From IMG/VR virus record IMGVR_UViG_3300048909_000032: 49,370 nt of DNA; one strand, 5' to 3'. Made by a program: the position numbers and the translations under genes. The notes beneath the pieces are model-generated. The model had not been told where the DNA came from, ran no database searches, and saw only the letters and a list, made by a program, of their open reading frames with translations. The DNA is from a virus. This document shows positions 6,754 to 43,121 of the stretch, piece by piece (position 1 is the stretch's first letter; every line of letters starts with the position of its first letter).

Positions 6754-7133
6754 GCATCCTCCAGGATATCCATCTGTTTCGTCTTGCACTCCCGCTCACC
6801 AATCGGCAGCGGTGCCAGCTGCGAGTCGCTCGGATTCTTCATCAGTTCCCGGCGCGATTCATTCTCGAACTTGTCGCGCAACGTTTTGCTGATCACGACT
6901 TTATGGCGCGGGGGTCGTAGGAACTCGACAAGCTCGGCGTCGGTCATGGCGTCCATCTTGAGGATGGCCAGCTGGATGACTTCGCTGATCTCTGGTGTGC
7001 TCGACCGATCACGGATTCGATCCATTGCCGCCTCGATGCCTGGCCGTACCTTATGTCGAAGTTCCTTTTCTGCGAGCTTGCCACGCTTGGCTGCGGCCTT
7101 CTGGCTGCGCTGCTGGGTTGTCATTGCGGTCAT
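6750..7133 (-). CDS. Hypothetical protein, 127 aa
   Basis: Track ORF. Its stop overlaps the MTase start (ATGA) and its start overlaps the upstream stop. Confidence 0.6.
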   Translation of the reverse strand: MTAMTTQQRSQKAAAKRGKLAEKELRHKVRPGIEAAMDRIRDRSSTPEISEVIQLAILKMDAMTDAELVEFLRPPRHKVVISKTLRDKFENESRRELMKNPSDSQLAPLPIGERECKTKQMDILEDA

Positions 7134-14341: not shown

Positions 14342-14349
14342 GCGTGCTT

Positions 14350-14929: not shown

Positions 14930-14947
14930 AGTCCCTGTGTGTGGACT
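14930..14947. promoter_or_regulatory. AGTCC-N8-GGACT operator copy
   Basis: agtcc ctgtgtgt ggact, with perfect 5-bp inverted arms. Confidence 0.55.
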
Positions 14948-14972
14948 CGATGGAATGGACTTTACAGATCAG

Positions 14973-14984
14973 AAACGTAGCGCG
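14973..14984 (+). promoter_or_regulatory. AAACGTAGCGCG motif, copy 1
   Basis: The identical 12-mer also occurs at 16105..16116 and 25834..25845, always on the plus strand upstream of plus-strand genes. Confidence 0.5.
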
Positions 14985-15050
14985 CAAGTCCTTTTGTAAA
15001 ATATTTTTCAACTCGGAAACGCAGGCGACGGACGGACCAATAATGGACCA

Positions 15051-15088
15051 TTGCGCAATTGTTTCGGAACGGCAATAATGGCCGAAAC
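15051..15088 (+). promoter_or_regulatory. Candidate rightward early promoter flanked by inverted repeat GTTTCGG-N14-CCGAAAC
   Basis: TTGCGC (15051), 17 nt, AATAAT (15074). The inverted-repeat arms at 15061..15067 and 15082..15088 bracket the -10. CAATAATGG occurs twice (15038, 15073). Confidence 0.4.
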
Positions 15089-15104
15089 CAGCACAGGAGG
15101 ATTT

Positions 15105-15359
15105 ATGGCAGACCTGAAAAAAGGCTTTAAAGGGCCGAAGAACGATGCACTGATGAACTGGCTGGAATTAGCCACCGATGCGCAGGTCAAAGCGACCGGC
15201 GCCTCGCGCAGCCACTTGCGCCTGATCGCCTACGGGCACCGCAAAACAGCCCCCGAATATGCGGCTATGATTGAGGCAGCGACTCAGGGACTGATTACGC
15301 GCCAGCAGCTTCGCCCGGATGACTGGAAGGTGATCTGGCCGGAGCTGAAAGCAGCATGA
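15105..15359 (+). CDS. Cro / YdaS-like small HTH regulator, 84 aa
   Basis: AGGAGG lies 5 nt upstream of ATG 15105. ...ATGASRSHLRLIAYGHRKTAPEYAAMIEAATQGLITRQQLRPDDW resembles the YdaS/Cro family ending (T.G.VTR..LRPD). Confidence 0.6.
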   Translation: MADLKKGFKGPKNDALMNWLELATDAQVKATGASRSHLRLIAYGHRKTAPEYAAMIEAATQGLITRQQLRPDDWKVIWPELKAA

Positions 15360-15411
15360 AACACGAATCCGGGTAAAGACCCGGCAAATACCCACTGACT
15401 AGGTAACCCCT

Positions 15412-15618
15412 ATGGCATACGATGACAAAATCCACCGGCATGACCGGCAAGTGAAGATCATGCTCAACACGGGCATCTTCGATGACCTGCGCGACGTGGC
15501 TGTGGCCAACGGCCTGCAACACAGCGTCCTCGCTCGCGAAGTGATCGAAGCCTTCCTCAAGGCTGTGGAAGAAACCGGCAAACTCCCCCTGGGCCTGGAT
15601 CAAAGAAAACGCGCCTGA
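15412..15618 (+). CDS. Ribbon-helix-helix (CopG/Arc-like) protein, 68 aa
   Basis: RQVKIMLNTGIFDDLRDVAVANGLQHSVLAREVIEAFL matches the beta-alpha-alpha RHH pattern. Confidence 0.6.
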   Translation: MAYDDKIHRHDRQVKIMLNTGIFDDLRDVAVANGLQHSVLAREVIEAFLKAVEETGKLPLGLDQRKRA

Positions 15619-15635
15619 TCACGTAATTAAGGACT
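15618..15635. promoter_or_regulatory. Half-site copy of the operator family (atcac-gtaattaa-ggact)
   Basis: The right arm and spacer ATTAAGGACT are identical to the late-promoter copy. The left arm is degenerate. Confidence 0.35.
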
Positions 15636-15643
15636 AATACAAG

Positions 15644-15901
15644 ATGCCCGGAAAAAATGCAGTTGTGATGGACTTCAGCGCTTCTTCTCAGCAGAGACTG
15701 GAGCGCATAGCGTCAATGTTGGGCATTACCGTGGATGATCTGGCCGACGCGGCTCTGACCATCGGCCTACCGGGCATCAAGCAGGCGCTGCAAAGCGCCT
15801 GTGATACCAGCCCCGTGGAAAAGGTTCAGGTGGGTGGCGTGATGGCCAATGTGGTGTGTTTGTGGAGCAAGCAGCCGATCGCCAGGGAGGCCAGTGGCTG
15901 A
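15644..15901 (+). CDS. Hypothetical protein, 85 aa
   Basis: Track ORF with AAGGAC upstream of the ATG. Confidence 0.5.
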   Translation: MPGKNAVVMDFSASSQQRLERIASMLGITVDDLADAALTIGLPGIKQALQSACDTSPVEKVQVGGVMANVVCLWSKQPIAREASG

Positions 15902-15907
15902 CCGCGA

Positions 15908-15925
15908 AGTCCGTAATTCTGGACT
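15908..15925. promoter_or_regulatory. AGTCC-N8-GGACT operator copy
   Basis: agtcc gtaattct ggact, immediately after the stop of 15644..15901. Confidence 0.55.
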
Positions 15926-15964
15926 GGTTCCCAAAGTGGTAGGAAAGATGCACAATCAGCAGGC

Positions 15965-16013
15965 AAAAAAAAGCCACCTGGCGGGTGGCTTCTCAACAAC
16001 GTCTAACTATGTG
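15965..16013 (-). ncRNA. Predicted leftward sRNA of about 50 nt ending in a strong intrinsic terminator
   Basis: Minus strand cacatagttagacgttgttgagaagccacccgccaggtggctttttttt: GCCACC/GGTGGC stem plus T8. It lies 7 nt downstream of the promoter at 16020..16047. Confidence 0.4.
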
Positions 16014-16019
16014 GACTTC

Positions 16020-16047
16020 ATTGTATGAACATTGCTCAAAATTGCAA
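16020..16047 (-). promoter_or_regulatory. Candidate sigma70 promoter on the minus strand (TTGCAA-N16-TACAAT)
   Basis: -35 at 16047..16042 and -10 at 16025..16020. It is followed by GAAGTCC-N8-AGACG, an imperfect operator copy placed as at the late and phaZ promoters. Confidence 0.45.
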
Positions 16048-16079
16048 TACCTCCGTTCGTCTTCTCAAAGGTGAACAAT

Positions 16080-16119
16080 CCGCGCCACAAAATGCGACAA
16101 ACGAAAACGTAGCGCGGAA
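16080..16119 (+). promoter_or_regulatory. Conserved leader element, copy A (CCGCGCCAC...GAAAACGTAGCGCGGAA) ending 7 nt before ATG 16127
   Basis: Aligns with 25808..25848. CCGCGC and GCGCGG can pair as a stem. Confidence 0.5.
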
Positions 16120-16126
16120 AGAAACA

Positions 16127-16801
16127 ATGAACAGCATCGACTTGCTAGATCTGGTCAATGCTGCCCGCCTTGAATTCGGTGAAAGCGAGGTCCGTCGCTC
16201 GGACTTCACCGCTCGCTGCAAGGATGAGCTGTCCGGCGAATACTACGAAACTTTCGTAGTTCATAATTTGCGCGGACCAGCCTCGGAAGCGCTAACCCTC
16301 ACCCTCGATCAGTGCATGCTGGTTTCAATGCGCGAGTCGAAGTCCGTCCGCCGGACCGTCCTGCAAAAGCTCAAGGATATAGAGAAGCCTCGCGAACTTT
16401 CCCGCATGGACCTTATTCAGCTTGCCTTGGCTGCCGAACAGGAAAAGCTTCAGATCGCCGCCGAGCGTGATCAAGCCGTCGCCACCAAGGCCGAGATTGG
16501 AAGTCGCCGCGAAGCCACCGCCATGGCCACCGCCTCATCCGCCGTAAAGCGCGTCAACAAACTTTTGGGCGAACTGGGCCGAAACGCCAAAGCCGCAACC
16601 GTCATTGCCGTCGAGAATGCAGGCAGCAGAAATTTCGGTAGCCAGGGCTTTCGACCACTCAAGAAGTGGTGCACGGCCAGGGGTATTTCTCCGGACAAGG
16701 TTCCATGCCCAAGGTTTGGTTATGCCGTTGCATGGCCGGCTCAAGCATGGCTCGACTGCTACGACATTGACCTGAGCGTCGTGTTCGGGGGTGAAGCATG
16801 A
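16127..16801 (+). CDS. Phage regulatory protein, Rha/antirepressor-like (tentative)
   Basis: Start moved to ATG 16127 (MNSIDLLDLVNAARLEF...). LTLDQCMLVSMRESKSVRRTVLQKLKDIE resembles the Rha-domain end. Coiled-coil middle. Confidence 0.45.
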   Translation: MNSIDLLDLVNAARLEFGESEVRRSDFTARCKDELSGEYYETFVVHNLRGPASEALTLTLDQCMLVSMRESKSVRRTVLQKLKDIEKPRELSRMDLIQLALAAEQEKLQIAAERDQAVATKAEIGSRREATAMATASSAVKRVNKLLGELGRNAKAATVIAVENAGSRNFGSQGFRPLKKWCTARGISPDKVPCPRFGYAVAWPAQAWLDCYDIDLSVVFGGEA

Positions 16802-17037
16802 GCACTCTCGACCCTTCTAACGTCATTGAGTTGCGCAACATCGCGCATGAACTGAAAACCTACAAGGTCGGAGGTGATCGCGAGCTTGGCCGCTTTCAAA
16901 AGGGATTGGCCTTGCGAATCCTGCAAAGCATTTCTGGCATCTGTAAAACCTGTGCCGGTGCTGGCGAGATCGGATGCCTTCGTCCTGATGGGTATGACTG
17001 CGAGCCATGCCCTGAGTGTGCGGAGGCGTCCCGATGA
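16798..17037 (+). CDS. Small zinc-finger protein (CxxCxGxG plus CxxCxxC)
   Basis: CKTCAGAGEIGCLRPDGYDCEPCPEC. ATGA overlap with the upstream gene. Confidence 0.6.
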   Translation: MSTLDPSNVIELRNIAHELKTYKVGGDRELGRFQKGLALRILQSISGICKTCAGAGEIGCLRPDGYDCEPCPECAEASR

Positions 17038-17843
17038 GCAAGAAGGACATCAACATCCAGAAGGCCACACCGACCGAACTGTTCGCCAAGAAGGCCCCGT
17101 ACAGCTCACTCAGCAATGATGTGGTGGCATCCATACGCAACCCTGATGCCTTGGCTATCTGGGTCTACCTACAGACCCGCTCGGGCGATTGGAAGGTAAT
17201 TGGCTCGTATCTGCAAACCCACTTCGACATCGGCCGCGACCGGTACCGCAAGGCTATGGCAGACCTGACGGCGCTGTCCCTGATCAGTCATGAATTGCAA
17301 CGTGATCCCGAGAACGGCCAGGTACTGGGCAAGCGAATCATCGTCCACTACGAGCCGAACATACAGGTTTCCGCACCTTCGGAACCTGAGGATTCACCGA
17401 ACATACAGGTTTCCCACTATTCGGCCGATCCACACTCTGGGGAAACAGCCCCCTACTTAATAAAGGATTCTATTACTGGATTATTAGAGGAAGAACCAAC
17501 GGGTGATAAATCACCCTCGCTGCCGCGCAAGTCGAGCAAGTTCGATCCAATCCCTGCCAAGCCCGCCAACGTATCCGCCGAGGCCTGGTCCGACTGGTGC
17601 CAACATCGCCGGGAGATCCGCAAGCCCCTGACCGCCAAGACCTGTGAGCAACAGGCCAAGGCGCTGCTGGCTCACTCATCCCCTGACGCCGTGATCAACC
17701 TGTCGATCAGCAACGGCTGGACCGGTCTATTCCCGGACAAGGTGCTGCCGACCAACAGCGTGGCATCGCGGCACAATGGCTTCGCTGGTCGCGACTACAG
17801 CGCCGGCCTTACCCCTCGCGAAGGGGGTGGCTATGCGTTCTGA
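17034..17843 (+). CDS. Replication initiator (lambda O-like role; wHTH N-terminus, DnaT-like C-terminus)
   Basis: ATG 17034 in an ATGA overlap. N-terminus ...LAIWVYLQTRSGDWKVIGSYLQTHFDIGRDRYRKAMADL; C-terminus WSDWCQHRREIRKPLT...SISNGWTGLF. Internal iterons and an AT-rich tract. Followed by the DnaC-like loader. Confidence 0.6.
   Translation: MSKKDINIQKATPTELFAKKAPYSSLSNDVVASIRNPDALAIWVYLQTRSGDWKVIGSYLQTHFDIGRDRYRKAMADLTALSLISHELQRDPENGQVLGKRIIVHYEPNIQVSAPSEPEDSPNIQVSHYSADPHSGETAPYLIKDSITGLLEEEPTGDKSPSLPRKSSKFDPIPAKPANVSAEAWSDWCQHRREIRKPLTAKTCEQQAKALLAHSSPDAVINLSISNGWTGLFPDKVLPTNSVASRHNGFAGRDYSAGLTPREGGGYAF
17355..17414 (+). repeat. Two perfect 18-bp direct repeats (ccgaacatacaggtttcc), 42 bp apart; putative origin iterons
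   Basis: 17355..17372 and 17397..17414. An AT-rich stretch follows at about 17455..17500. Confidence 0.5.
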
Positions 17844-18639
17844 AATCGTCACCCTGCCGAAAGCCACCGACCCGGGCACGGTCACCCGGGAAGCGCTGTG
17901 CGATGACCACGGCCCGTTCTCCCAGAAGACCATCAAGATTCTGAACAGCACGTTTGAAACTGAGTGCCCGTCCTGCGCAACCATCCGCAAGGAGGCCGAG
18001 AAGGCTGCGGAAATCGCGCAGGCGGCGCTTGAGGCGAAAATGCGCATGGAGCGTAAGCTTGGCTCCGCATTGATCCCCAAGCGCTTCGCAGAGCGCACGC
18101 TGGACGGGTACACCGTCGAGAACGAAGGGCAGAAGGAGGCGCTGCGGATCTGCCGCAAGTACGCCGCGGTGTTCCCTGAGATCTACAAGGCCGGTCGCTG
18201 CCTGCTGCTACTGGGGAAACCCGGCACCGGCAAGACGCACCTGGCCGTGGGCATTGCCAACGAGATCATGCGCACCTCGGCCTCTACCGCCGTGTACCGC
18301 ACTGTCGGCTCGCTCCTGCAAGCCATTCGGGGCTCCTACGACAAATCCGGCACGCAGAACGAGGCGCAGATCCTGGCCAGCATGATCGAGCCGTCCCTGC
18401 TGATCCTCGACGAGATTGGCGTCAGCAAGGAGAAGCCGAGCGACTTCGAGCTGACCACCCTGTTCGCCGTGATCAACGGCCGCTACGAGCAGCAACGCCC
18501 GACGGTGATCATCAGCAACCTGGACGCCGAGCATTTGCCGATGGCCATGGGTGATCGGTGTGTCGACCGTTTGCGGGAAGGTGGCGGGATCGCCGTAAAA
18601 TTCGATTGGGAATCACAGCGTGGGAAGGAGTTCTTTTGA
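17833..18639 (+). CDS. DnaC/IstB-like AAA+ helicase loader
   Basis: Walker A LLLLGKPGTGKTHLA, Walker B LLILDEIG, sensor PTVIISN. ATG 17833. Confidence 0.88.
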   Translation: MRSEIVTLPKATDPGTVTREALCDDHGPFSQKTIKILNSTFETECPSCATIRKEAEKAAEIAQAALEAKMRMERKLGSALIPKRFAERTLDGYTVENEGQKEALRICRKYAAVFPEIYKAGRCLLLLGKPGTGKTHLAVGIANEIMRTSASTAVYRTVGSLLQAIRGSYDKSGTQNEAQILASMIEPSLLILDEIGVSKEKPSDFELTTLFAVINGRYEQQRPTVIISNLDAEHLPMAMGDRCVDRLREGGGIAVKFDWESQRGKEFF

Positions 18640-19109
18640 TGACTACTGAAAAGATGCGTGAAGAGTTTATCGACTGGCTGGCCGACGTGCACGACCTTGA
18701 AAGCGAGTGGCAGGAAGAGCGGAACTGCTTCAAGGATTTCCCTGCGCACTTGGCATTTCAGGCTTGGCAGGCCTCCCGCGCGGAGCTGGTGATCGAACTG
18801 CCGAACTTCAAGCCGAAAGTAGTCCGTGGGCTTGGTGGCGGGAAAGTGCAGTTTGGTGTCACAGCTCAGGGAGCGCTCAACGAGTGCGTCTGCGTGCTGG
18901 AAATGGCCGGCCTGACGGTTAGGGTAGCGCCAAGGGAGGACCGTATTTTTATCCGAACTCCCCTGATGCTGGAGTGGGCCACGGCCTGCATGAAAGACAT
19001 GCAGATCCTGTGGCGGAGCGGATACCCGTCAGTTGTCACCAGCATCAATGGCGGCTATTGCGACCTGACCGAAGTTGTGTATGCCAAGCAATCGAAGGTG
19101 ACCCCATGA
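18639..19109 (+). CDS. Hypothetical protein, 156 aa
   Basis: ATG 18639 in a TGATG overlap, with GGAAGGAG upstream. Confidence 0.6.
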   Translation: MTTEKMREEFIDWLADVHDLESEWQEERNCFKDFPAHLAFQAWQASRAELVIELPNFKPKVVRGLGGGKVQFGVTAQGALNECVCVLEMAGLTVRVAPREDRIFIRTPLMLEWATACMKDMQILWRSGYPSVVTSINGGYCDLTEVVYAKQSKVTP

Positions 19110-19255
19110 ACCTCCTAGTCATGTCCAGCACTGGCCGTATGCAGTCCTCTTGGCTGAAGGTCAACCTGATCCGTATCGGCTTGTGGCGCCCTCAGATCTG
19201 CGATGACGCTACGTCGGATGGTCCGCACTGCAAGATTCGTTGGGGGATGAAATGA
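19106..19255 (+). CDS. Micro-ORF, 49 aa
   Basis: ATGA overlaps at both ends. MNLLVMSSTGRMQSSWLKVNLIRIGLWRPQICDD... Confidence 0.4.
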   Translation: MNLLVMSSTGRMQSSWLKVNLIRIGLWRPQICDDATSDGPHCKIRWGMK

Positions 19256-19641
19256 TGAGTCAGATGATCGAAGTGAATACCGCCGAACTAACCGGGCAGG
19301 CGCTGAATTTTGCCGTAGCAATCTCAGACGGCTGGTCGTGGGATGGCCAGAAAGGCTATGACGGCTATATGGCGGCAGCTTGGCTTTCCAAGGATGGCAC
19401 GAGAGAGCAATTTCAGAATTTTCGGTATTCATGCAGCTGGCACTTGGTCGGACAATTGATCGAGAAGTACCGCCTGGCATGGCAGTACCTTGAAGAGGAT
19501 GAGATTGAGGCGTGGGTTTTGGGAAAGTCAAAATCAACCGGCATGATTGGCGGCACCCAGATCATTGCTTCATGCCGAGCAATCGTGAAGCTAAAGCTCG
19601 GCGACACCGTTAAAGTCCCTGCCGAACTGGTGACGCCATGA
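19252..19641 (+). CDS. DUF2591 / NinX-like protein (paralogue of 2837..3196)
   Basis: ELTGQALNFAVA...SCSWHLVGQLIEKY...IIASCRAIVKLKLGDTVKVPAELV. Confidence 0.7.
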   Translation: MMSQMIEVNTAELTGQALNFAVAISDGWSWDGQKGYDGYMAAAWLSKDGTREQFQNFRYSCSWHLVGQLIEKYRLAWQYLEEDEIEAWVLGKSKSTGMIGGTQIIASCRAIVKLKLGDTVKVPAELVTP

Positions 19642-19814
19642 CCCCTCCCCAAGCAATGCAGGTCGCCCGCCTCCAGTCCCAAGGCTTCGCGCTGACCCAG
19701 GAACTCAAGGACGCCGTTCGGATGGTCAAGGGTGCGGATATTCGCATCGTGATGAGCGACGGAACGATGAAACGAGGACACCATGAGAGCAGGCCGCACA
19801 AGGAGAAGGTGTGA
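19638..19814 (+). CDS. Micro-ORF, 58 aa
   Basis: Own translation MTPPQAMQVARLQSQGFALTQELKDAVRMVKGADIRIVMSDGTMKRGHHESRPHKEKV. Coupled at both ends. Confidence 0.45.
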   Translation: MTPPQAMQVARLQSQGFALTQELKDAVRMVKGADIRIVMSDGTMKRGHHESRPHKEKV

Positions 19815-20329
19815 TGGGCAAAACATTCGCTGAAAACCTGATTTTGGCTAGATCCAAGACCGGCATGACACAAAAAGAACTGGCGCGGAAAAGCGGCTTG
19901 AGTACTCAGCAGTTAGCTGGGTATGAAGTTGGTGACTCCGGATCAATATCAAGTCCACCCCTAACGCACGTGATCAAATTGGCAAGCGTTCTCGGAATTA
20001 GCATCGATGATCTGGTTCCCATTCATAAATTCAATGCTGAACCATCTCTGGCGAACCTGATCGCCGAGATTGACCGCCTGAAATCCGATCTGCGTGAGTC
20101 AGAGGATCTGGTTGAGCATCTGCAGGACAAGCGGACCGAGCTGCAGCGGGAGGTTGAGATGCTGCGCAAGGCTGCCGGAGATGCATCTGCCGAACTGTAC
20201 AAGGCCGTCGGCTGGATCTGTCGGGAAGTCGAGGCCGGCACCAAGTCAGCGACCCACTGGGCAATCCGGCTTGGTAGCAGCGCCAAGGTGCTAGAGGCAG
20301 CCATTGCCAAAGGGGGCTCCAATGGCTGA
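19814..20329 (+). CDS. XRE-family HTH protein with C-terminal coiled coil
   Basis: FAENLILARSKTGMTQKELARKSGLSTQQLAGYEVG...LASVLGISIDDLV. No S24 peptidase domain seen. Confidence 0.75.
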   Translation: MGKTFAENLILARSKTGMTQKELARKSGLSTQQLAGYEVGDSGSISSPPLTHVIKLASVLGISIDDLVPIHKFNAEPSLANLIAEIDRLKSDLRESEDLVEHLQDKRTELQREVEMLRKAAGDASAELYKAVGWICREVEAGTKSATHWAIRLGSSAKVLEAAIAKGGSNG

Positions 20330-20792
20330 TAAAATCAGCGTCAACAGCCAAGCCAAGCTTTCCGAGGCGATCACCTGCCTGACAGCCATGTACCGGGAGA
20401 AGAGGTTTGTTGTCGTCTCGCTGCGGCCCGGCAAGGATCGTACCCTTGATCAGAACGCCCTATGGTTCGCCCTGTACAAGCGAATTGCGGAAATGACGCA
20501 GATAGGCGATGTCGAGGACGCTCGCCGGTACTGTAAGCTGCACTTCGGTGTGGTGATCATGCGTGGCGAAAGCGAGGAATTTCGCGACGGCTGGAACCGG
20601 ATGTTCCTGCATCTGGAGTACGAGCAGAAGCTTGAGCTGATGGGGCCGTGTTCGATCTTTGGGCCGGATGGCTTCCCGGTGACGCGATTGTTCAACCGGG
20701 CGCAAGGAATTCTGTACACGGATCGCATCGTTTCGGAGTTCACGGGAAGGGGCGTTTTCTTCGGCGATTTGCTGAAAGAGGAAGCCGCATAA
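20322..20792 (+). CDS. ninB: NinB/Orf-family recombination mediator
   Basis: VVVSLRPGKDRTLDQNALWFALYKRIAE parallels lambda NinB ...RNRSLDQNRKLWACLGDVS. Confidence 0.65.
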   Translation: MADKISVNSQAKLSEAITCLTAMYREKRFVVVSLRPGKDRTLDQNALWFALYKRIAEMTQIGDVEDARRYCKLHFGVVIMRGESEEFRDGWNRMFLHLEYEQKLELMGPCSIFGPDGFPVTRLFNRAQGILYTDRIVSEFTGRGVFFGDLLKEEAA

Positions 20793-20817
20793 AATAGTTA
20801 CCAATCGGCAAAAAATA

Positions 20818-20847
20818 AGTCCCTAACCACGGACTATGCGCTATAAT
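20818..20847 (+). promoter_or_regulatory. AGTCC-N8-GGACT operator copy directly upstream of a TATAAT box
   Basis: agtcc ctaaccac ggact atgcgc TATAAT (20842..20847). The operator sits where a -35 would be. Confidence 0.5.
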
Positions 20848-20880
20848 CGCCTGACGAAAACGGACGTGAGGCAGGCGGTT

Positions 20881-21177
20881 ATGCGAGTAATTTCCAAAAA
20901 GCTCAGAGAGTCCGCAAGAGATCAATCTTGCACTCTGCGCCTAAGTGGCTGCCAGCATGATCACGGCGTCGTGCTGGCCCACCTTCCCTGTGGTCAGAAG
21001 GGTGTCGGGATGAAGGGTCCAGACGTAATTGCCTGTTTTGCCTGTGACCACTGTCACTCAGTCATTGATTCCCGCGTCCGCGGCGAATACACCGGCGCTG
21101 ACCTGCTGCGCGCCCTTGCTGAAACTCAAATGTACTGGATCGAGAAAGGCCTGATAACGGTCAAGGGGGCTGCGTGA
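20881..21177 (+). CDS. YbcO-like (DUF1364) putative nuclease
   Basis: RESARDQSCTLRLSGCQHDHGVVLAHL...KGPDVIACFACDHCHSVID...ETQMYWIEKGLI parallels E. coli YbcO. ATG 20881 was chosen because the track start 20836 precedes the TATAAT box. Confidence 0.65.
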   Translation: MRVISKKLRESARDQSCTLRLSGCQHDHGVVLAHLPCGQKGVGMKGPDVIACFACDHCHSVIDSRVRGEYTGADLLRALAETQMYWIEKGLITVKGAA

Positions 21178-21446
21178 GCCATCAATTCAAAGAAGGCGAC
21201 TTGGCTCTCACCATCGTCGATGACGAATTTATCCCCGCCTACAGCGTAGTGACGCTCAACTCCAGAGCAACGAAAGGTGAGCCGTGCTTCACGTGGGATG
21301 ACAAGCCGGATTTCGCTGAGGATGATGGATGGTTTGTCCTACACCCCAGCAGCAAAGAGGCATGGTTTTATGCCGACAAGGAGTTGATCCCACTGAAAGG
21401 CGATTTCGATCCAGTCCAGCAGAAGGATCGCGAGGTAGTCGCATGA
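21174..21446 (+). CDS. Hypothetical protein, 90 aa (GTG start)
   Basis: Track ORF in a GTGA overlap, with AAGGGGG upstream. Confidence 0.5.
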   Translation: MSHQFKEGDLALTIVDDEFIPAYSVVTLNSRATKGEPCFTWDDKPDFAEDDGWFVLHPSSKEAWFYADKELIPLKGDFDPVQQKDREVVA

Positions 21447-21523
21447 CCGCCATCACCCTACTCGCCATCGCCTGGTTCTGCCTTCGGGGCCAGGTCATCA
21501 ACTGGTGGAGGTCGTGCAAGTGA
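21443..21523 (+). CDS. Micro-ORF, 26 aa, hydrophobic
   Basis: MTAITLLAIAWFCLRGQVINWWRSCK. ATGA overlap. Confidence 0.3.
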   Translation: MTAITLLAIAWFCLRGQVINWWRSCK

Positions 21524-21678
21524 AGAAACCTTGCCCGATCAACGCCAACCACGACACATCTGCATTCAGCACCTATCAGGATTTGTGGTGCCACGACTGC
21601 CGGAAATTCCACCCTTGGCCGCTGAAGCCTGATCAGCGACCGTTGCATTCTGACCCCAGAGACAAGCGGAGTAAGTGA
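21520..21678 (+). CDS. Micro-ORF, 52 aa, Cys/His-containing (GTG start)
   Basis: VKKPCPINANHDTSAFSTYQDLWCHDCRKFHPW.... Coupled at both ends. Confidence 0.35.
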   Translation: MKKPCPINANHDTSAFSTYQDLWCHDCRKFHPWPLKPDQRPLHSDPRDKRSK

Positions 21679-22133
21679 TGAAAGTAACAGATGCGGAAAT
21701 TCTGAAAGCTATTTGGCGCGAACAAATCAAGAAGACAGCGCATGGGGTAATTGATAATTACATCGGCGGAACCAAGTCGGTTTCTTATGGCCAATTCCGC
21801 CAGGGGTATGCGCAAAACCTCTACATGATAAGTCGTCAGCAGCTGGGCCTGCCGCTGAGTAAAGGTCATCTGGGTCGACGCCTGAAGGCTTTGATCAGTT
21901 CCGGTGGTCCATTGCAGTGGGATGGCAGGGAAGGTAATGCATACCACTTCAAGTGCAAGGCCAGTGATGATGTGTATGCCGCCGCCCGTGAGTGGTGGGC
22001 AGGTAAGGGCGTGCCGACAGGGTTTGATGAAGAGAACAAACGCACACGTACGGCCCTCGTCGACGACTTCGACGGCAAGGTCGCGCAGCTTCAGCAGGAC
22101 CTGCTGTCCAAGTTCGGGAGCATGCAGCCATGA
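21678..22133 (+). CDS. Hypothetical protein, 151 aa
   Basis: Track ORF. ATG 21678 in a TGATG overlap. Confidence 0.6.
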   Translation: MKVTDAEILKAIWREQIKKTAHGVIDNYIGGTKSVSYGQFRQGYAQNLYMISRQQLGLPLSKGHLGRRLKALISSGGPLQWDGREGNAYHFKCKASDDVYAAAREWWAGKGVPTGFDEENKRTRTALVDDFDGKVAQLQQDLLSKFGSMQP

Positions 22134-22258
22134 TGGATACGACTGAGCTGAAGAAACTGGCCGAGGCTGCTGAAAATAACAGTTTGTCCCGGCAGGACGA
22201 GATCAATAGCCTGCGTGAGCGGCTTGCTCGCCTTGAACTGAAGGCGGTGAAGCCATGA
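22130..22258 (+). CDS. Small coiled-coil protein, 42 aa, sharing its C-terminal motif with 48916..49155
   Basis: ...RQDEINSLRERLARLELKAVKP compared with ...YQDEINSLRERLARLEPKGVKP. Confidence 0.45.
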   Translation: MMDTTELKKLAEAAENNSLSRQDEINSLRERLARLELKAVKP

Positions 22259-22560
22259 CCCGCAAACACAATCATTATTTTAAAAGCGTGTCACACCTAT
22301 CCGAAATCGACGTGTACCGGGTACTAGACCTGTTCGCCGTGACCAATCCCAGCATCCAGCACGCGACCAAGAAGCTGCTGTGTGCGGGCGGACGTGGCAC
22401 CAAGGACTTCGAGAAGGATCTGCGCGAGGCGCGGGATTCGATTGAGCGGGCATTGCAGATGATCGCGGAGGACAGAAGCCAGATCAGCGAGCCGTTATCG
22501 CTGGTGCCGCTGAGCGCCTGCACATGCTTCGAGAGGGATTGCGCATGTCTTCAGGCGTAA
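22255..22560 (+). CDS. Hypothetical phage protein, 101 aa
   Basis: HYFKSVSHLSEIDVYRVLDLF..T.PSIQHATKKLLCAGGRGTK is a widespread phage motif of unknown function. Confidence 0.6.
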   Translation: MTRKHNHYFKSVSHLSEIDVYRVLDLFAVTNPSIQHATKKLLCAGGRGTKDFEKDLREARDSIERALQMIAEDRSQISEPLSLVPLSACTCFERDCACLQA

Positions 22561-22973
22561 CCGCAAGGAAGCCCAAGGCGATCGCCCTGCCGGTGCCGAC
22601 GGAGCATGTCGAACAGGTGAAAGTTATTACGTGGTTCCGCCTGCAATACCCGGCGATCAAGGAACTGCTGATCGCAATCCCGAATGGCGCACATCTGGCC
22701 GGGACGCCGATCCAGCGAGCCAAGAAGATTCAGCGCATGAAGGCCGAAGGGTTCACCACTGGGGTGGCGGACCTGTTCCTGATGAAGCCGTCTTTCGGGT
22801 ATTCCGGCCTATGGATCGAAATGAAGCGACTCAAGTATTCGCCATCCGACGTGAGCGACGACCAGAAGGCGTTCCAGGTGAGAGCGCTGGATAACGGGTA
22901 TCAGGCAGTGGTGTGCGGCGGCTTCGAGGCTGCGCGGGAAGCGATCAAGGCATATTTGCAGGGGGTGGTATGA
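22545..22973 (+). CDS. VRR-NUC domain nuclease
   Basis: EHVEQVKVITWFRLQYP...IPNGAHL...GFTTGVADLFLMKP....GLWIEMK...Q..F...L...GY.AVVC (D...ExK core). Confidence 0.8.
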   Translation: MSSGVTARKPKAIALPVPTEHVEQVKVITWFRLQYPAIKELLIAIPNGAHLAGTPIQRAKKIQRMKAEGFTTGVADLFLMKPSFGYSGLWIEMKRLKYSPSDVSDDQKAFQVRALDNGYQAVVCGGFEAAREAIKAYLQGVV

Positions 22974-23179
22974 GCAAGTGGGTGGCGCGGGTCCGCTGCA
23001 AATGCGGCCATGCATATTCAGGGGAAATATTCAGTGCATCTGACTTTCGGATAATCCAAGTATGCCCAACCTGCGGGAGCAAGAAGGAATGGCGCGACAC
23101 GGTAGAGCGCTGGGTATCAACCTCGAAGTGGAATAGTCCGCGCACATGGGGTACTGGCTACTGGGAGGTTAAGGCATGA
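22970..23179 (+). CDS. Small zinc-ribbon protein, 69 aa
   Basis: MSKWVARVRCKCGHAY...VCPTCGSKKEW. ATGA overlaps. Confidence 0.5.
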   Translation: MSKWVARVRCKCGHAYSGEIFSASDFRIIQVCPTCGSKKEWRDTVERWVSTSKWNSPRTWGTGYWEVKA

Positions 23180-23715
23180 AATATCTAAACATCGTCACAG
23201 CAGTGGTCCGGGCACTATCGACCGACAACATGGGCGGCGGCATGAACTTCGAGCCTCGGGTGCAGGACACCAAGCTCAAGGGGGAGATCACTGGCAAGGA
23301 TGACCAGCTGCTGCACGACAGTATGATCCGGGCTCGCCTGCATGCCACGCTGGCCCCGGAACACTGGGAGATCCTGAAGGCCAAGTTCTCGCCGGACCTG
23401 AACCACAAGCGCGAATCCATTCGGGCGGTGCGTACCCGAGTGAAGACGCCTGCGCCGGAACGGTTCAGGGATGCTGCGGTGCTGACCTGGGCCATGCCGA
23501 AACTGCCGGGGAAGGATGGGAAGCGCTCAGCTACCACGCTGCCGGCCGAATGGTACGAAACTGATCGCTGGTGTGACGATCCTGTGCCAGAGAGAACCAA
23601 GCAGCGCTGGAGGCGTGACATTTCCATCGGGTTGGAGGCGGAAGTGAACAAGGCGCTAGCCATTGCTCAGGAAGCGCTGGAGCCGCTGGGAATCTTCCGC
23701 GAACAGGTAGCGTGA
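23176..23715 (+). CDS. Hypothetical protein; a late-gene regulator (Q-like) candidate by position only
   Basis: It is the last gene before the late promoter-leader-terminator and lysis genes. No motif recognised. Confidence 0.55.
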   Translation: MKYLNIVTAVVRALSTDNMGGGMNFEPRVQDTKLKGEITGKDDQLLHDSMIRARLHATLAPEHWEILKAKFSPDLNHKRESIRAVRTRVKTPAPERFRDAAVLTWAMPKLPGKDGKRSATTLPAEWYETDRWCDDPVPERTKQRWRRDISIGLEAEVNKALAIAQEALEPLGIFREQVA

Positions 23716-23776
23716 TAAATATATTTACTGGCCCATTGCCAAGACTGGCGCTGTGGCGTATCGTATTGTCATCCTG

Positions 23777-23825
23777 TTGCAATTGCGTTCAGGGCTTGAA
23801 TATATAGAGTCCATGATTAAGGACT
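23777..23825 (+). promoter_or_regulatory. Candidate late promoter (TTGCAA-N17/18-TATATA) with an AGTCC-N8-GGACT operator at the start site
   Basis: ttgcaa ttgcgttcagggcttga atatata g agtcc atgattaa ggact. Confidence 0.45.
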
Positions 23826-24082
23826 GCGAGTTTCAACCAGCGGCCAGAGTTGCCCGACTAGTTCCCTCCTTCGAGTCGGGGTATCTGGATACGGTTTAGC
23901 CGGTTCGTACCGTAACATCGCAAAACACCGGCAGCCTGCGAGCCCTACTAACGCTTACTCAGGGGGTTGTGCAGGCGGGAGGAAGGGGAAGACCTTCACG
24001 AATCAACCAACGCCGCCGACCGACTCGGCAAATCGCGGAGATGCACCGCATTGAGTCAGCCCGCAGATGCGGAATTAATTCT

Positions 24083-24159
24083 GGCGAGTTCCACTGTCTG
24101 GTGATGTGGCAAGGCTCATAACCTTGATCAGGTCGGTTCGATCCCGACACTCGCTACCA
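24083..24159 (+). tRNA. tRNA with anticodon CAU (Met or Ile2), 77 nt, CCA encoded
   Basis: Hand fold: acceptor GGCGAGU/ACUCGCU (G1-U72), D arm CACU-gucugguga-UGUG, anticodon arm CAAGG-CUCAUAA-CCUUG, variable AUCAG, T arm GUCGG-UUCGAUC-CCGAC, then ACCA. Confidence 0.8.
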
Positions 24160-24167
24160 ATTCCAAG

Positions 24168-24193
24168 GCCTCGCCATCGTGCGGGGCTTTTTC
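24168..24193 (+). terminator. Rho-independent terminator directly after the tRNA
   Basis: gcctcgc-catcgt-gcggggc then ttttt. Confidence 0.65.
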
Positions 24194-24299
24194 AATTTCG
24201 GCACCCACGCAACCGTCCTTGCCCCGAGCGGACGCGATATGCGCGGAGTGCCGGACCTATTTCCGCTCCAATCATGGGGCATTCACCGGATGCTCAATC

Positions 24300-24614
24300 A
24301 TGCCAGACAGACCTGAGAGCTGGGCCAAGTTCTGGGATGCGTTGACCAATCCGCTCATCCAAGGCGCGATCATGGCGATTCTCATTTCCTTCCTTCGCGT
24401 CCTGTACGACTCCAAAGAAACCAACAAGTGTCGGATCTTCTCCGAGGCGATGATCTGCGGCGGCCTGAGTCTATCGGCCAGCAGCATCATTTCGTGGATG
24501 GCCTGGCCGGAGAATCTGTCGGTCGCTGCCGGTGGGGCCATTGGCTTCCTCGGCGTGACGGCGATCCGCGAGATCCTGGTCAAGTTCCTCGGCAGAAAGG
24601 CGGATTCATTATGA
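24300..24614 (+). CDS. Lambda-family (class I) holin
   Basis: GAIMAILISFLRVLYDSKE....RIFSEAMICGGLS and GAIGFLGVTAIREILVKFLGRKA parallel lambda S ([39 protein letters not shown]). ATG 24300. Confidence 0.8.
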   Translation: MPDRPESWAKFWDALTNPLIQGAIMAILISFLRVLYDSKETNKCRIFSEAMICGGLSLSASSIISWMAWPENLSVAAGGAIGFLGVTAIREILVKFLGRKADSL

Positions 24615-24985
24615 GAGCCATCGCCGCAGCAATCATCATCGCCCTGGTCGCCCTGCTGCTCATTGGCGTCCAGCAGTATCGCGTCACCACCTTGCGCGCC
24701 GAAATGCAGATCGAAACCAAGAGCAAGGAAGACGCCATTGCGGCGAACGCCGAAAGCCAGGCGACGATCACCACCCTGCAAGCCGAAGCCAAACGCAACG
24801 CTGACTACAGCGCCGACCTGGCCAAACGCATCAAGGCCAGCGAAGACAAAGCCAAAAAGGCGAGGAAAGACTTTGAAGACCTCAAACGCAGCAGCAAACC
24901 TGTTCGTGATTGGGCTGCTCAGCCTCTGCCTGACGGCCTGCGCACCAAACCCAGTGGTGACCAAGGCCAGCGCAATACGAATTGA
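24611..24985 (+). CDS. Rz-like inner-membrane spanin
   Basis: N-terminal TM MRAIAAAIIIALVALLLIGV, coiled coil, and C-terminal PVRDWAAQPLPDGL. ATGA overlap with the holin gene. Confidence 0.75.
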   Translation: MRAIAAAIIIALVALLLIGVQQYRVTTLRAEMQIETKSKEDAIAANAESQATITTLQAEAKRNADYSADLAKRIKASEDKAKKARKDFEDLKRSSKPVRDWAAQPLPDGLRTKPSGDQGQRNTN

Positions 24986-25139
24986 AGCGCCCGAGCTGAT
25001 CCCTTGCGAACGGGTAGGTGATGACACCGACCTGAGCGACAACGGCTCACTGTGGGATCTGAAAGACCAAGCCATCAAGCTGCTCGATACCTGCGCCGAC
25101 CAAGTGGACGCCCAGATCTTGCGCAGCCAGAGCAAGTGA
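24873..25139 (+). CDS. Rz1-like outer-membrane lipoprotein spanin, overlapping the end of the i-spanin gene in the +1 frame
   Basis: Lipobox LSLCLTAC after a hydrophobic stretch. Proposed TTG start at 24873 with AGGAAAG 4 nt upstream (start uncertain). Extends 154 nt beyond the Rz stop. Confidence 0.6.
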   Translation: MKTSNAAANLFVIGLLSLCLTACAPNPVVTKASAIRIEAPELIPCERVGDDTDLSDNGSLWDLKDQAIKLLDTCADQVDAQILRSQSK

Positions 25140-25149
25140 GGACCGCACC

Positions 25150-25377
25150 ATGCAACTGATCGACAACGCAAGTGGATGGCACAAGCTCTGGTCTGTGCGC
25201 GTGGCTCTGGCCGGATCGGTCCTGAACGCCATGGTCATTGGCTGGACCGTCTTCCAAGGCTCGGTAAACCCGCTGCTCTACGCCGCCATCAACATGGGGC
25301 TTGGCGTCTGCGTGGCTGTGGTGCGTGTGCTGCCTCAGGGTAAGCCTGATGACAGCGCGGCTGGTCCTGAAGCTTGA
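25150..25377 (+). CDS. Small membrane protein (two predicted TM helices)
   Basis: WSVRVALAGSVLNAMVIGWTVF and LLYAAINMGLGVCVAVVRVL. GAGGA SD. Confidence 0.55.
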   Translation: MQLIDNASGWHKLWSVRVALAGSVLNAMVIGWTVFQGSVNPLLYAAINMGLGVCVAVVRVLPQGKPDDSAAGPEA

Positions 25378-25391
25378 ATTGAGGAATCGAC

Positions 25392-25550
25392 ATGAAAGTC
25401 AGCCGGATAACGGTAAGCATCAGGCTGGCTTGGTGGCTGCGCGCATATCTGCATGGCGTGCGGCTTATATCCGAACTGACCGGACTCGAACCTGATTACG
25501 ACAAAGTCTCGTACTGGGTGAGTCGCGGAACAAAGCTCAAGGTGACGTGA
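25392..25550 (+). CDS. Micro-ORF, 52 aa
   Basis: MKVSRITVSIRLAWWLRAYLHGVRLISELTG.... GAGGAA SD. Confidence 0.4.
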   Translation: MKVSRITVSIRLAWWLRAYLHGVRLISELTGLEPDYDKVSYWVSRGTKLKVT

Positions 25551-25798
25551 TGACCGCAGAACAGTTTGCATATTGGTTGCAGGGCTTCGTCGAGCTGACA
25601 ATTGGCCGGCAGCCAACGCCAGAACAGTGGAAGTCAGTCACTGAGCACCTGGGTACGGTGTTCAACAAGGTGACGCCGCCGGTTCGAATCGGCCCTGGCC
25701 CCTACCCGCGCATCTTTGATGACGGTTTGAGGGACCACCAGCGAGCTATCGGTCCTCGTCCATGGTTCGACGGACAGGCGATTCAGATCACCTGCTGA
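25550..25798 (+). CDS. Hypothetical protein, 82 aa
   Basis: Track ORF. ATG 25550 in a TGATG overlap. Confidence 0.55.
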   Translation: MTAEQFAYWLQGFVELTIGRQPTPEQWKSVTEHLGTVFNKVTPPVRIGPGPYPRIFDDGLRDHQRAIGPRPWFDGQAIQITC

Positions 25799-25807
25799 CC
25801 CATTATC

Positions 25808-25848
25808 CCGCGCCACGAAATCAATCAAGCGTGAAACGTAGCGCGGAA
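25808..25848 (+). promoter_or_regulatory. Conserved leader element, copy B (CCGCGCCAC...GAAACGTAGCGCGGAA) ending 12 nt before the portal ATG
   Basis: Aligns with 16080..16119. The 15-mer AAACGTAGCGCGGAA is identical in both. Confidence 0.5.
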
Positions 25849-25860
25849 TAGGAAAGAAAT

Positions 25861-43119: not shown

Positions 43120-43121
43120 AT

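What the first reader, a model, noticed from the sequence alone, without database searches (positions are those of the whole stretch)
14973..25848. Conserved leader element of about 40 nt (CCGCGCCAC...AAACGTAGCGCGGAA) immediately upstream of two operon-leading genes, plus a third core copy
Segments 16080..16119 and 25808..25848 align as CCGCGCCAC-R-AAAT-(about 10 nt)-GAAACGTAGCGCGGAA and end 7 and 12 nt before the ATGs of the Rha-like gene and the portal gene. The outer CCGCGC and GCGCGG can pair, which would place a stem-loop directly against the ribosome-binding region. The 12-mer AAACGTAGCGCG occurs a third time at 14973, upstream of the Cro-like gene. Three identical 12-mers in 49 kb, all on one strand and all in 5-prime leaders, is very unlikely by chance. 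The element could be a translational operator, an RNA processing or antitermination site, or a phage-specific promoter element.
Basis: seen in the sequence. Interest (0 to 1): 0.62.

Follow-up and report, generated by a model that had tools for sequence, protein, structure and literature searches.

The report
Conserved hairpin element in Pseudomonas phages
The two look-alike 40-base stretches are copies of an undescribed short palindromic element carried by many Pseudomonas phages; one copy is always hidden inside a small conserved early gene, the others sit at gene and module borders, and it probably controls expression of the genes downstream and also serves as a crossover point between phages.

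Summary
The sequence observation is correct. The two segments (16080-16117, 25808-25846) are real copies of one element: (C)CGCGC-C-ACG, a 16-19 nt variable spacer with A/T borders, then CGT-R-GCGCG(G). The 12-mer at 14973 is only a solo right arm.

The element is not local. A covariance model finds 128 distinct copies in about 100 Pseudomonas phage and prophage contigs, 1-5 per genome, and essentially none elsewhere. No Rfam family matches it.

One copy lies in the coding sequence of a small basic early protein (phrog_5439; here 6750-7133, minus strand). That protein is the only family shared by all eight complete element-bearing genomes. In this gene the DNA is conserved rather than the peptide: synonymous sites in the arms are frozen, and the right arm is read in two different frames in different homologues.

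Other copies lie inside transcription units, mostly in the sense direction. They sit between a stop codon and the next ribosome-binding site, in the 5' ends of Rha/antirepressor ORFs, or just before terminators, and they coincide with mosaic breakpoints.

The best reading (about 35%) is an RNA stem-loop recognised by the phrog_5439 protein. A double-stranded DNA site (about 28%) is nearly as likely. The mechanism is inferred, not shown.

The parts
16080..16117 (+). Element copy A: CCGCGCCAC-AAAATGCGACAAACGAAAAC-GTAGCGCGG. It lies within ORF 16025-16801 and ends 9 nt before the internal ATG 16127.
   Evidence: Covariance model 49.5 bits, E 3e-10. Homology with relative G003 ends at 16118.
25808..25846 (+). 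Element copy B. It lies between the stop codon TGA 25796-25798 of a small gene and the ribosome-binding site AGGAAAG (25850-25856) and ATG 25861 of the portal gene.
   Evidence: 51.6 bits, E 1e-10. Homology with G003 starts at 25803. Conserved before the portal gene in G003, G002 and MT835615.
6872..6913 (-). Element copy C, inside the coding sequence of the phrog_5439 gene in the sense direction (CCGCGCCAT...AAAACGTTGCGCG, which encodes PRHKVVISKTLRD).
   Evidence: 22.6 bits, E 0.0016; sequence. The same position carries a copy in 70 of 76 loci that hold homologues of the gene. Synonymous sites are frozen there.
14973..14984 (+). Solo right-arm 12-mer AAACGTAGCGCG in the non-coding region upstream of the cro-like gene. 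It is not a full element.
   Evidence: Exact match. No left arm and no model score. Lies in a region not shared with G003. A remnant or chance; about 0.007 exact copies expected, my estimate.
6750..7133 (-). Gene for a 127-aa basic, helical early protein (phrog_5439, function unknown). It is the candidate partner of the element.
   Evidence: phrog_5439, E 5e-21. The only protein family shared by all 8 complete element-bearing genomes. 88 homologues, all unnamed. No Pfam, NCBIfam or fold match.
16025..16801 (+). Rha/antirepressor-like regulator gene (phrog_4936). The start is either 16025 or 16127. The body after the element is replaced by a different Rha gene in G003.
25861..27273 (+). Portal gene (Phage_portal_3), the first gene of the head module downstream of copy B.
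25547..25798 (+). Small variable gene that ends 9 nt before copy B. It is absent from, or replaced at, the same place in G003.
15973..15989 (.). GC hairpin (GCCACC-tggc-GGGTGGC) about 90 nt upstream of copy A. It has an A8 run on one side, so it reads as an intrinsic terminator mainly on the minus strand.
   Evidence: Read. The stem covaries in G003 (GCCGCC/GGCGGC). It was not listed by the consensus scan.

Best explanation
The segments are copies of a phage-specific imperfect palindrome: a 9-bp GC-rich stem, (C)GCGC-C-ACG / CGT-R-GCGC(G), usually with a C.A mismatch in the middle, around a 16-19 nt variable loop with A/T-rich borders.

I propose that it works on the transcript. The sense-strand RNA stem-loop would be the recognition site of the small basic early protein phrog_5439 (here 6750-7133, minus strand), whose own gene always carries a copy. 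Binding would set the output of what lies just downstream. That could be translation where the hairpin abuts a ribosome-binding site or start codon (portal, Rha/antirepressor genes). It could be read-through or processing where the hairpin sits 10-15 nt before an intrinsic terminator. It could be feedback on the distal early-left operon through the in-gene copy.

As a by-product, 36-40 bp of sequence shared among co-infecting phages gives a preferred crossover point, which explains why copies sit at mosaic junctions.

Shown: the family exists, the in-gene copy is under selection at the nucleotide level, most copies are co-oriented with the genes, the phrog_5439 gene co-occurs with the element, and homology breakpoints are enriched at elements.

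Inferred: that RNA rather than DNA is the active form, that phrog_5439 is the binder, and the direction of the effect.
For: - **Family size and host range.** There are 128 distinct copies, 1-5 per genome, in Pseudomonas phage contigs and named phages. A scan of 596 Gb of bacterial genomes gave 73 hits, and only the six Pseudomonas ones, which read as prophages, carry the full signature.
- **Position and direction.** Copies lie inside transcription units. In the eight complete genomes every asymmetric copy is on the strand of the surrounding genes. Hand checks turned apparent exceptions into sense copies (L228). Two related copies (L248, L255) read U.G when read in the gene direction; by my own knowledge U.G is isosteric with C.A.
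- **Pairing changes.** L8-R8 changes C-G to A-T in two copies whose genomes keep a standard copy elsewhere. L5-R5 changes G-C to A-T once. The central position shows C.A, C-G and U-A.
- **Selection on the in-gene copy.** The codons are fixed at CCG in 58 of 59, CGC in 61 of 62, CAC in 62 of 63, GAA in 49 of 49 and GCG in 37 of 37 sequences. Other four-fold sites in the gene have 1.2-1.9 bits of entropy. The right arm AAAACGTKGCGCG is read as K-T-L-R-D in some homologues and as N-V-A-R-E in others.
- **Partner protein.** phrog_5439 is the only family in all 8 complete genomes. It is Lys/Arg-rich and helical. Its best solved-structure sequence hits are the RNA-binding ribosomal protein S20, but this is weak (E 0.06).
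- **Context of the 64 other copies.** 26 are followed within 25 nt by an ORF start, and 7-8 by an intrinsic terminator within about 30 nt.
Against: - The sense RNA is the weaker folder. The antisense strand folds better in 104 of 128 copies (-19.4 against -15.5 kcal/mol for copies outside the gene), because the sense strand has C.A and A.C where the antisense strand would have G.U.
- The arms are conserved in sequence and rarely covary. The few double changes are not statistically strong.
- The A/T borders of the loop do not covary: AAA/AAA is as common as UUU/AAA.
- An automated strand call on fragmentary contigs gave 25 sense against 8 antisense for C.A copies. Several of the 8 proved to be miscalls, but not all were checked.
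- phrog_5439 has no recognisable RNA-binding or DNA-binding domain. The S20 similarity is only 16% probability by hhalign, and the Pfam S20 model does not hit it.
- A site 215 nt inside its own ORF is an odd place for a translational operator.
- Phage UFJF_PfDIW6 has only the in-gene copy.
Confidence: 0.35

Rival explanations
1. The element is a double-stranded DNA site: a split palindrome of two half-sites, CGCGCYACG with an A/T flank, 16-19 bp apart. It would be bound by a phage protein (phrog_5439 or another) that acts on elongating RNA polymerase or on local promoters, as a roadblock or operator in the manner of mycobacteriophage stoperators.
For: - The arms are conserved in sequence rather than covarying, and each half-site tolerates C or T at the same position.
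- The A/T flanks are kept A/T-rich but not complementary.
- The sense RNA hairpin is systematically weakened while the DNA dyad is kept.
- Orientation relative to transcription does not exclude a DNA site. L5 stoperators are oriented in this way (own knowledge).
- A cis site inside the gene of its own binding protein is common for DNA transactions, for example lambda ori in O and P22 pac in gene 3 (own knowledge).
- There are weak NCBIfam hits of two family members to plasmid repressor RepA2/CopB (E 0.03).
Against: - Spacer length varies from 16 to 19 bp.
- Compensated double changes occur in single copies while another copy in the same genome stays standard (L340, L345, L339).
- Copies at operon ends just before terminators and inside ORFs are odd places for operators.
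- No DNA-binding domain was detected.
- The strong bias of C.A over its mirror T.G relative to gene direction needs an extra explanation.
Confidence: 0.28
2. The element is mainly a recombination linker or a selfish mini-palindrome. It would be a short conserved hairpin-forming sequence, possibly active as a bottom-strand DNA hairpin like an integron attC site, that spreads and mediates exchange of gene cassettes between phages, with no regulatory role of its own.
For: - Homology with G003 stops at 16118 and starts at 25803, exactly at the element borders.
- HSP ends lie within 20 nt of elements 17 times against 4.0 expected across eight genomes.
- Different Rha/Ant genes follow the same element.
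- Copies sit in frame in linkers of unrelated proteins, as Rickettsia palindromic elements do (own knowledge).
- The bottom strand folds better.
- These phages encode exonuclease and SSB recombination genes.
Against: - Orthologous copies persist over long divergence. The portal-upstream copy is present at 79% gene identity, and the in-gene copy is present in 70 of 76 loci.
- The arms are under strong purifying selection at synonymous sites.
- There is no target-site duplication, no presence/absence polymorphism with clean edges, and no dedicated recombinase shared by all genomes.
- Copy number is low (1-5 per genome).
Confidence: 0.15
3. The element is a promoter for a phage-specific or alternative sigma factor.
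For: It is a conserved sequence just upstream of some start codons. It has a loose resemblance to AAAT/AAC ... CGT motifs of ECF/PvdS-type promoters (own knowledge; spacing read).
Against: - The start codon follows within 5-12 nt in many copies.
- Copies lie inside ORFs, directly after stop codons and directly before terminators.
- The AAAT part is replaced by TTT in half of the copies.
- No sigma-70-like site overlaps the copies.
Confidence: 0.03

Closest known systems
Extended start-associated sequences (ESAS/SAS) of cluster K mycobacteriophages (Pope et al. 2011, PMC3203893)
   Same: Imperfect inverted repeats with a variable spacer, repeated several times per phage genome, almost all in one orientation, placed just upstream of the translation starts of a subset of genes, conserved across related phages, and of unknown function.
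   Different: The sequence, host and phage lineage are unrelated. ESAS arms are 17 bp with a 4-13 bp spacer and are coupled to a 13-bp SAS that includes the ribosome-binding site. The element here has 9-bp arms and a 16-19 nt spacer, and it also occurs inside ORFs and before terminators. A conserved copy inside a conserved gene is not described for ESAS.
Stoperators of mycobacteriophage L5 and cluster A phages (own knowledge: Brown et al. 1997)
   Same: Many short conserved sites inside transcription units, in short intergenic spaces, oriented with transcription, and thought to act on elongating polymerase.
   Different: Stoperators are 13-bp asymmetric double-stranded DNA sites bound by the immunity repressor, with 20-30 copies per genome. 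Here the sites are palindromic and few, and they are shared by phages whose immunity regions differ, so the binder cannot be the immunity repressor.
Lambda nut sites (boxA + boxB) with N protein
   Same: A sense-strand RNA hairpin inside early transcripts, paired with a small basic protein encoded in the early-left operon. Some copies sit just before terminators.
   Different: The loop is 16-19 nt, not a GNRA-like pentaloop. There is no boxA near the copies. Copies also occur in the late region and inside ORFs. There is no detectable similarity of phrog_5439 to N.
Rickettsia palindromic elements and integron attC sites (own knowledge)
   Same: Palindromic elements that can sit in frame inside protein-coding genes (Rickettsia elements). 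Structured sites with conserved arms, a variable centre and fixed orientation at cassette borders, where the bottom strand folds better (attC).
   Different: The element here is much shorter (about 38 nt against 57-150 nt). It has no GTTRRRY core, no IntI-type integrase and only a few copies, and there is no evidence of transposition.

Membership tests
Any Rfam 15 RNA family | Covariance-model match at or near the gathering score | tested here: not met
   The whole window at gathering thresholds gave only Proteo-phage-1 at 23838-23936. A permissive scan of 25740-25900 gave only chance-level hits with E above 1.
Lambda-type nut site | boxB: a short hairpin with a 5-nt GNRA-like loop | tested here: not met
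   The stem is 9 bp and the loop 16-19 nt in all 128 copies.
Lambda-type nut site | A boxA (YGCTCTTTA) a few nt upstream of the hairpin | tested here: not met
   There are 5 matches with up to 1 mismatch in the window against 12.6 expected. None is next to a copy on the right strand.
Lambda-type nut site | Restricted to the early-left and early-right transcripts, upstream of terminators | tested here: not met
   Copies also lie before the portal gene and other structural genes and inside ORFs.
Cluster K mycobacteriophage ESAS/SAS | A 13-bp SAS (GGGATAGGAGCCC) 3-8 bp before the start codon, with 17-bp inverted repeats upstream | tested here: not met
   No such sequence is present. The arms are 9 bp with a different sequence. 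The resemblance is in architecture only.
Host REP/REPIN-type repeats | Tens to hundreds of copies in the host chromosome | tested here: not met
   A scan of 596 Gb of bacterial genomes gave 73 hits, about the chance number. The six Pseudomonas hits are single copies with the full signature, and their flanks read as prophage.
Intrinsic terminator | A GC hairpin followed directly by a T/U run | tested here: not met
   The sequence after the stem is GGAA, GCAA or GACA. It is not listed by the terminator scan. Separate terminators follow 7-8 of the copies.
RfaH ops element | The 12-nt GGCGGTAGNNTG on the non-template strand | tested here: not met
   The right arm AAACGTAGCGCG matches 7 of 12 positions. 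The C3:G8 pair and T11 are missing (read; the consensus is from my own knowledge).
Integron attC | RYYYAAC ... GTTRRRY core sites and an IntI integrase nearby | tested here: not met
   The arms are CGCGCCACG / CGTRGCGCG. No recombinase family is shared by the element-bearing genomes.
Ribosomal protein S20 family (for the phrog_5439 protein) | Match to Pfam Ribosomal_S20p, or a significant profile-profile match | tested here: not met
   The PDB profile search gives S20 as the best hit, but only at E 0.06. There is no Pfam hit. The Pfam S20 model finds only the host genes in five prophage-bearing genomes. hhalign probability is 16%.
Ribbon-helix-helix DNA-binding proteins (for the phrog_5439 protein) | Match to an RHH profile or fold | tested here: inconclusive
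   By eye the sequence resembles strand-helix-helix (residues 25-62). There is no Pfam RHH hit, no fold match and no profile match to the window's own RHH-like protein. A monomer model cannot show the dimeric sheet.

The most novel reading that the evidence does not exclude
The element and the phrog_5439 protein form a previously unknown phage regulator-and-site system. A small basic protein, possibly distantly derived from ribosomal protein S20, would recognise one conserved stem-loop present in the early-left, early-right and late transcripts, including inside its own mRNA. It would use that stem-loop to time translation or terminator read-through across the whole genome. This would be a Pseudomonas-phage counterpart of N/nut with a different protein and a different RNA.
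Probability: 0.2. Interest if true: 0.8.

Novelty: new variant of a known kind. Interest (0 to 1): 0.6.

Why it matters
Repeated, oriented short elements in phage genomes (stoperators, SAS/ESAS, nut sites) are keys to how phages time gene expression and how they swap modules, and several of them are still unexplained. This element is simple and widespread. It occurs in over 100 Pseudomonas phage contigs and in isolated phages such as Medea1, UFJF_PfDIW6 and PseuP_222. It comes with a single candidate partner gene, so the question can be tested directly at the bench.

The copy kept inside a coding sequence, read in two different frames and with frozen synonymous sites, is a clean case of a nucleic-acid signal overriding codon choice. 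It also matters for annotation. Gene callers place the starts of Rha/antirepressor genes inconsistently around the element. The element also marks the points at which these phage genomes are mosaic.

Tried and rejected
- **Host repeat (REP-like).** Rejected. The genome-wide scan gave chance-level numbers, and the only true-looking hits, six in Pseudomonas, read as prophage contexts.
- **Known RNA family.** None found.
- **Sigma-70 promoter or intrinsic terminator at the copies.** None found.
- **boxA/nut.** Absent.
- **RfaH ops.** Only 7 of 12 positions match.
- **A conserved peptide motif (APR....QNVAR) as the real signal.** Rejected. Spacers of 19 nt break the frame. Many copies follow stop codons. 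The right arm is read in two frames. Synonymous sites are frozen.
- **The 14973 12-mer as a third element.** No model score. The analogous place in G003 holds only a degenerate look-alike (2.2 bits).
- **Function of phrog_5439.** Pfam, NCBIfam, PHROG, PDB sequence search, an AlphaFold model with Foldseek against PDB and BFVD, and hhalign against S20 and against the window's RHH-like protein were all negative or marginal.
- **Automated strand assignment of flanking genes from GC3.** Noisy, with several miscalls found by hand. I therefore rely on the complete genomes and on manual reading.
- **Earlier scan notes.** Nothing found.
- **Literature searches.** They gave no description of this element.

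Full report
**1. The observation**

The window is a complete phage genome of 49.2 kb and 59% G+C. Positions 1-127 repeat at 49244-49370. Its few DNA matches are to Pseudomonas phages.

The 12-mer AAACGTAGCGCG occurs exactly three times, all on the + strand (14973, 16105, 25834). With up to one mismatch there are 5 matches against 0.24 expected. The full pattern CCGCGCCAC-N-GTAGCGCGG occurs twice, at 16080-16117 and 25808-25846, with 0 expected. These two copies end 7 and 12 nt before ATG 16127 and ATG 25861.

So the sequence facts are right.
- The portal gene is not operon-leading. It follows the lysis cassette and a small gene whose stop codon (25796-25798) lies 9 nt before the element.
- At the Rha-like gene the reading frame is open from ATG 16025 through the element. 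PHROG profiles align from residue 26-28 of that long ORF.
- The 14973 copy is a solo right arm with no covariance-model score.
- A genuine third copy was missed. It lies at 6872-6913 on the minus strand, inside a gene (22.6 bits, E 0.0016).

**2. A widespread family**

- Exact-pattern scans of viral contigs showed about 20 further contigs with GCGCCAC-N18/19-ACGTAGCGC, all carrying the same signature around it.
- I built a covariance model from 23 copies. It found 1-5 distinct sites in each of 19 viral records and further copies in the flanks of 76 other loci. In all there are 128 distinct sequences.
- A scan of 596 Gb of bacterial genomes gave only 73 hits, about the chance number. Only the six hits in Pseudomonas carry the full signature, and their flanks read as prophage. 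The element is therefore phage-borne, not a host repeat.
- Isolated phages carry it: UFJF_PfDIW6, Medea1, PseuP_222, psageB2, Aurca01, AH02, PotUPM1 and phiAH14b. In these records it is unannotated or falls under 'hypothetical protein'.
- Rfam has no matching family.

**3. Anatomy**

- The left arm is (C)GCGC-C-ACG and the right arm is CGT-R-GCGC(G).
- Nine positions can pair. Positions 5-8, 10 and 11 pair in 97-100% of copies.
- The central position is C.A in 41 of 64 copies outside the phrog_5439 gene, C-G in 17 and T-A in 5. Inside that gene it is C-G (34), C.T (23) or C.A (7).
- The spacer is 16-19 nt and free in sequence, except for A/T-rich borders. The 3' border is nearly always AAAA. 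The 5' border is AAA or TTT about equally, so these borders do not covary.
- True double changes are few. L8-R8 changes C-G to A-T in L340 and L345, whose genomes keep a standard copy elsewhere. L5-R5 changes G-C to A-T in L339.
- The arms are thus mainly conserved in sequence, which points to sequence-specific recognition of a paired or dyad structure.

**4. Position and direction**

- In the eight complete genomes every asymmetric copy lies on the strand of the surrounding genes.
- An automated call on fragmentary contigs was noisier, giving 25 sense against 8 antisense for C.A copies. Hand checks showed miscalls. For example, the L228 copy lies in frame inside a 171-aa ORF in the sense direction.
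- Two related copies (L248, L255) are truly inverted. Read in the gene direction they carry U.G, the isosteric counterpart of C.A.
- Of the 64 copies outside the phrog_5439 gene, 26 are followed within 25 nt by an ORF start, and 7-8 by an intrinsic terminator within about 30 nt. Others overlap the stop codon of the upstream gene or lie in frame in ORFs.
- Before Rha/antirepressor-type genes the ATG follows the stem by only 4-5 nt, with no Shine-Dalgarno sequence. An upstream in-frame ATG with a good Shine-Dalgarno sequence exists in four independent contexts. These copies may therefore be coding.

**5. The copy inside a gene**

- All-against-all comparison of the eight complete genomes gave one protein family present in all of them: the 127-aa protein of 6750-7133 on the minus strand (phrog_5439, unknown function).
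- Its gene holds the element about 215 nt from the start, in the sense direction, in 70 of 76 loci with a homologue.
- The nucleotide sequence is what is kept. The right arm AAAACGTKGCGCG is read as K-T-L-R-D in some homologues and as N-V-A-R-E in others, through a compensated +1/-1 shift.
- Synonymous third positions in the arms are frozen: CCG in 58 of 59, CGC in 61 of 62, CAC in 62 of 63, GAA in 49 of 49 and GCG in 37 of 37. Other four-fold sites of the same gene have 1.2-1.9 bits of entropy.
- Phage UFJF_PfDIW6 has this copy only. The gene plus its internal copy is therefore the core unit, and the other copies are additions.

**6. Mosaic junctions**

- Homology between the window and its nearest relative (G003, the same record as G001) ends at 16118 and resumes at 25803, exactly at the element borders. 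Different Rha genes follow copy A, and different small genes precede copy B.
- Over all pairs of the eight genomes, 17 alignment ends fall within 20 nt of an element against 4.0 expected. The events are not fully independent.
- A phage whose portal DNA is only 79% identical still has the element before the portal gene, with the same arms and an unrelated loop.

**7. Folding**

- Both strands fold into the expected hairpin. As DNA, copies A and B give z-scores of -2.5 to -3.7. As RNA in a longer context the sense strands give only -1.8 and -1.4.
- Across all copies the antisense strand folds better in 104 of 128. For copies outside the gene the means are -19.4 against -15.5 kcal/mol. The reason is that the sense strand has C.A and A.C where the antisense strand has G.U.
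- This is the main point against a simple sense-RNA hairpin. It can also be read as a hairpin that is kept deliberately weak, or as a sign that duplex DNA or the bottom strand is the active form.

**8. The candidate partner protein**

- phrog_5439 is Lys/Arg-rich at its N-terminus. The model is all-helical with moderate confidence (pLDDT 68). The element-encoded peptide lies in a predicted linker.
- There are no Pfam, NCBIfam or fold matches.
- The best PDB sequence hits are ribosomal protein S20 over nearly its full length, but at E 0.06. hhalign gives 16% probability, and the Pfam S20 model does not detect the protein. I treat this as a lead only.
- A ribbon-helix-helix reading by eye has no profile support.

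**9. Explanation**

I commit to an element that acts inside transcription units as the recognition site of the phrog_5439 protein, most likely as the sense RNA stem-loop. It would control translation, processing or terminator read-through of what lies downstream. A secondary role is as a crossover point between phages. I put this at about 0.35.

A double-stranded DNA site of the stoperator or roadblock kind is nearly as likely, at about 0.28. A recombination linker or selfish palindrome without a regulatory role stands at about 0.15. A promoter is unlikely, at about 0.03.

Established here:
- The family is real.
- The in-gene copy is under selection at the nucleotide level.
- The element and the phrog_5439 gene occur together.
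- Copies coincide with mosaic junctions.

Strongly indicated but not fully settled: the bias toward the direction of the genes. It rests on the eight complete genomes and on contexts read by hand.

Inferred only: the active molecule, the binder and the effect.

**10. Comparison with what is known**

- The nearest analogue in architecture is the ESAS/SAS system of cluster K mycobacteriophages. These are inverted repeats with a variable spacer just upstream of the starts of a subset of genes, almost all in one orientation, and of unknown function.
- L5 stoperators and lambda nut sites are the nearest functional models.
- In-frame residence in genes recalls Rickettsia palindromic elements.
- The element fails the defining features of each of these families (see the membership table), so it is a new element of a known general kind.

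Noticed in passing
window 1-127 and 49244-49370: A 127-bp exact terminal direct repeat. The window is a complete genome of 49,243 bp, either circularly assembled or with terminal repeats.
   Followed up: partly
window 43092-45178: The terminase genes (TerL 43568-45178, phrog_38) lie after the tail module instead of before the portal gene. The portal gene follows the lysis cassette. The same order is seen in relatives G003 and G002, so it is not an assembly error.
   Followed up: partly
window 23736-24190: A promoter-like site (23736-23764), a Proteo-phage-1 RNA (RF03044, 23838-23936, 55.9 bits), tRNA-Met (24083-24159) and an intrinsic terminator (24165-24190) lie in a row just after the phrog_3412 gene and before the lysis genes. 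This looks like a late-promoter leader region.
   Followed up: no
window 15973-16047: The hairpin 15973-15989 has an A8 run on its left, so it is a textbook terminator for the minus strand. A minus-strand promoter-like site (TTGCAA-16-TACAAT, 16047-16020) points at it, which would give a leftward RNA of about 45 nt just upstream of element copy A. The stem covaries in G003.
   Followed up: partly
window 3564-4043: An array of about 30 tandem 15-bp repeats lies inside minus-strand gene 3373-4056, giving a pentapeptide-repeat protein. The repeat contains CGTAGCGC.
   Followed up: no
window 13800-15100: No cI-type repressor and no integrase were recognised among the ORFs I searched. About 750 bp (14345-15100) upstream of the cro-like gene has no convincing ORF and holds repeated CGCTACTGGCG motifs (14440, 14708). 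The immunity system may be unusual.
   Followed up: no
window 15412-15618 and 15644-15901: Two small genes after the cro-like gene share an internal DNA repeat (15483-15513 and 15736-15766). By eye they look like ribbon-helix-helix proteins placed ahead of the Rha/antirepressor-like gene, an arrangement that recalls P22 immI (arc/mnt-ant).
   Followed up: partly
window 5754-6749: A DNA methyltransferase gene (phrog_1008 match; the ORF from the upstream GTG reads FAGAGGG, which I take to be C5-methyltransferase motif I) starts at the stop codon of the phrog_5439 gene. Relatives carry different genes at this position. The element arms are rich in GCGC/CGCG, a link I did not explore.
   Followed up: no
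window 7490-7975 and 7977-8606: Adjacent paralogous genes (both phrog_9129, unknown function), with a 70-nt DNA repeat at 7732-7801 and 8243-8312.
   Followed up: no
L228 24-1097: A TnpB-like (IS605 OrfB-type) gene is inserted in a related phage contig, about 400 nt upstream of an ORF that carries an in-frame element copy.
   Followed up: no
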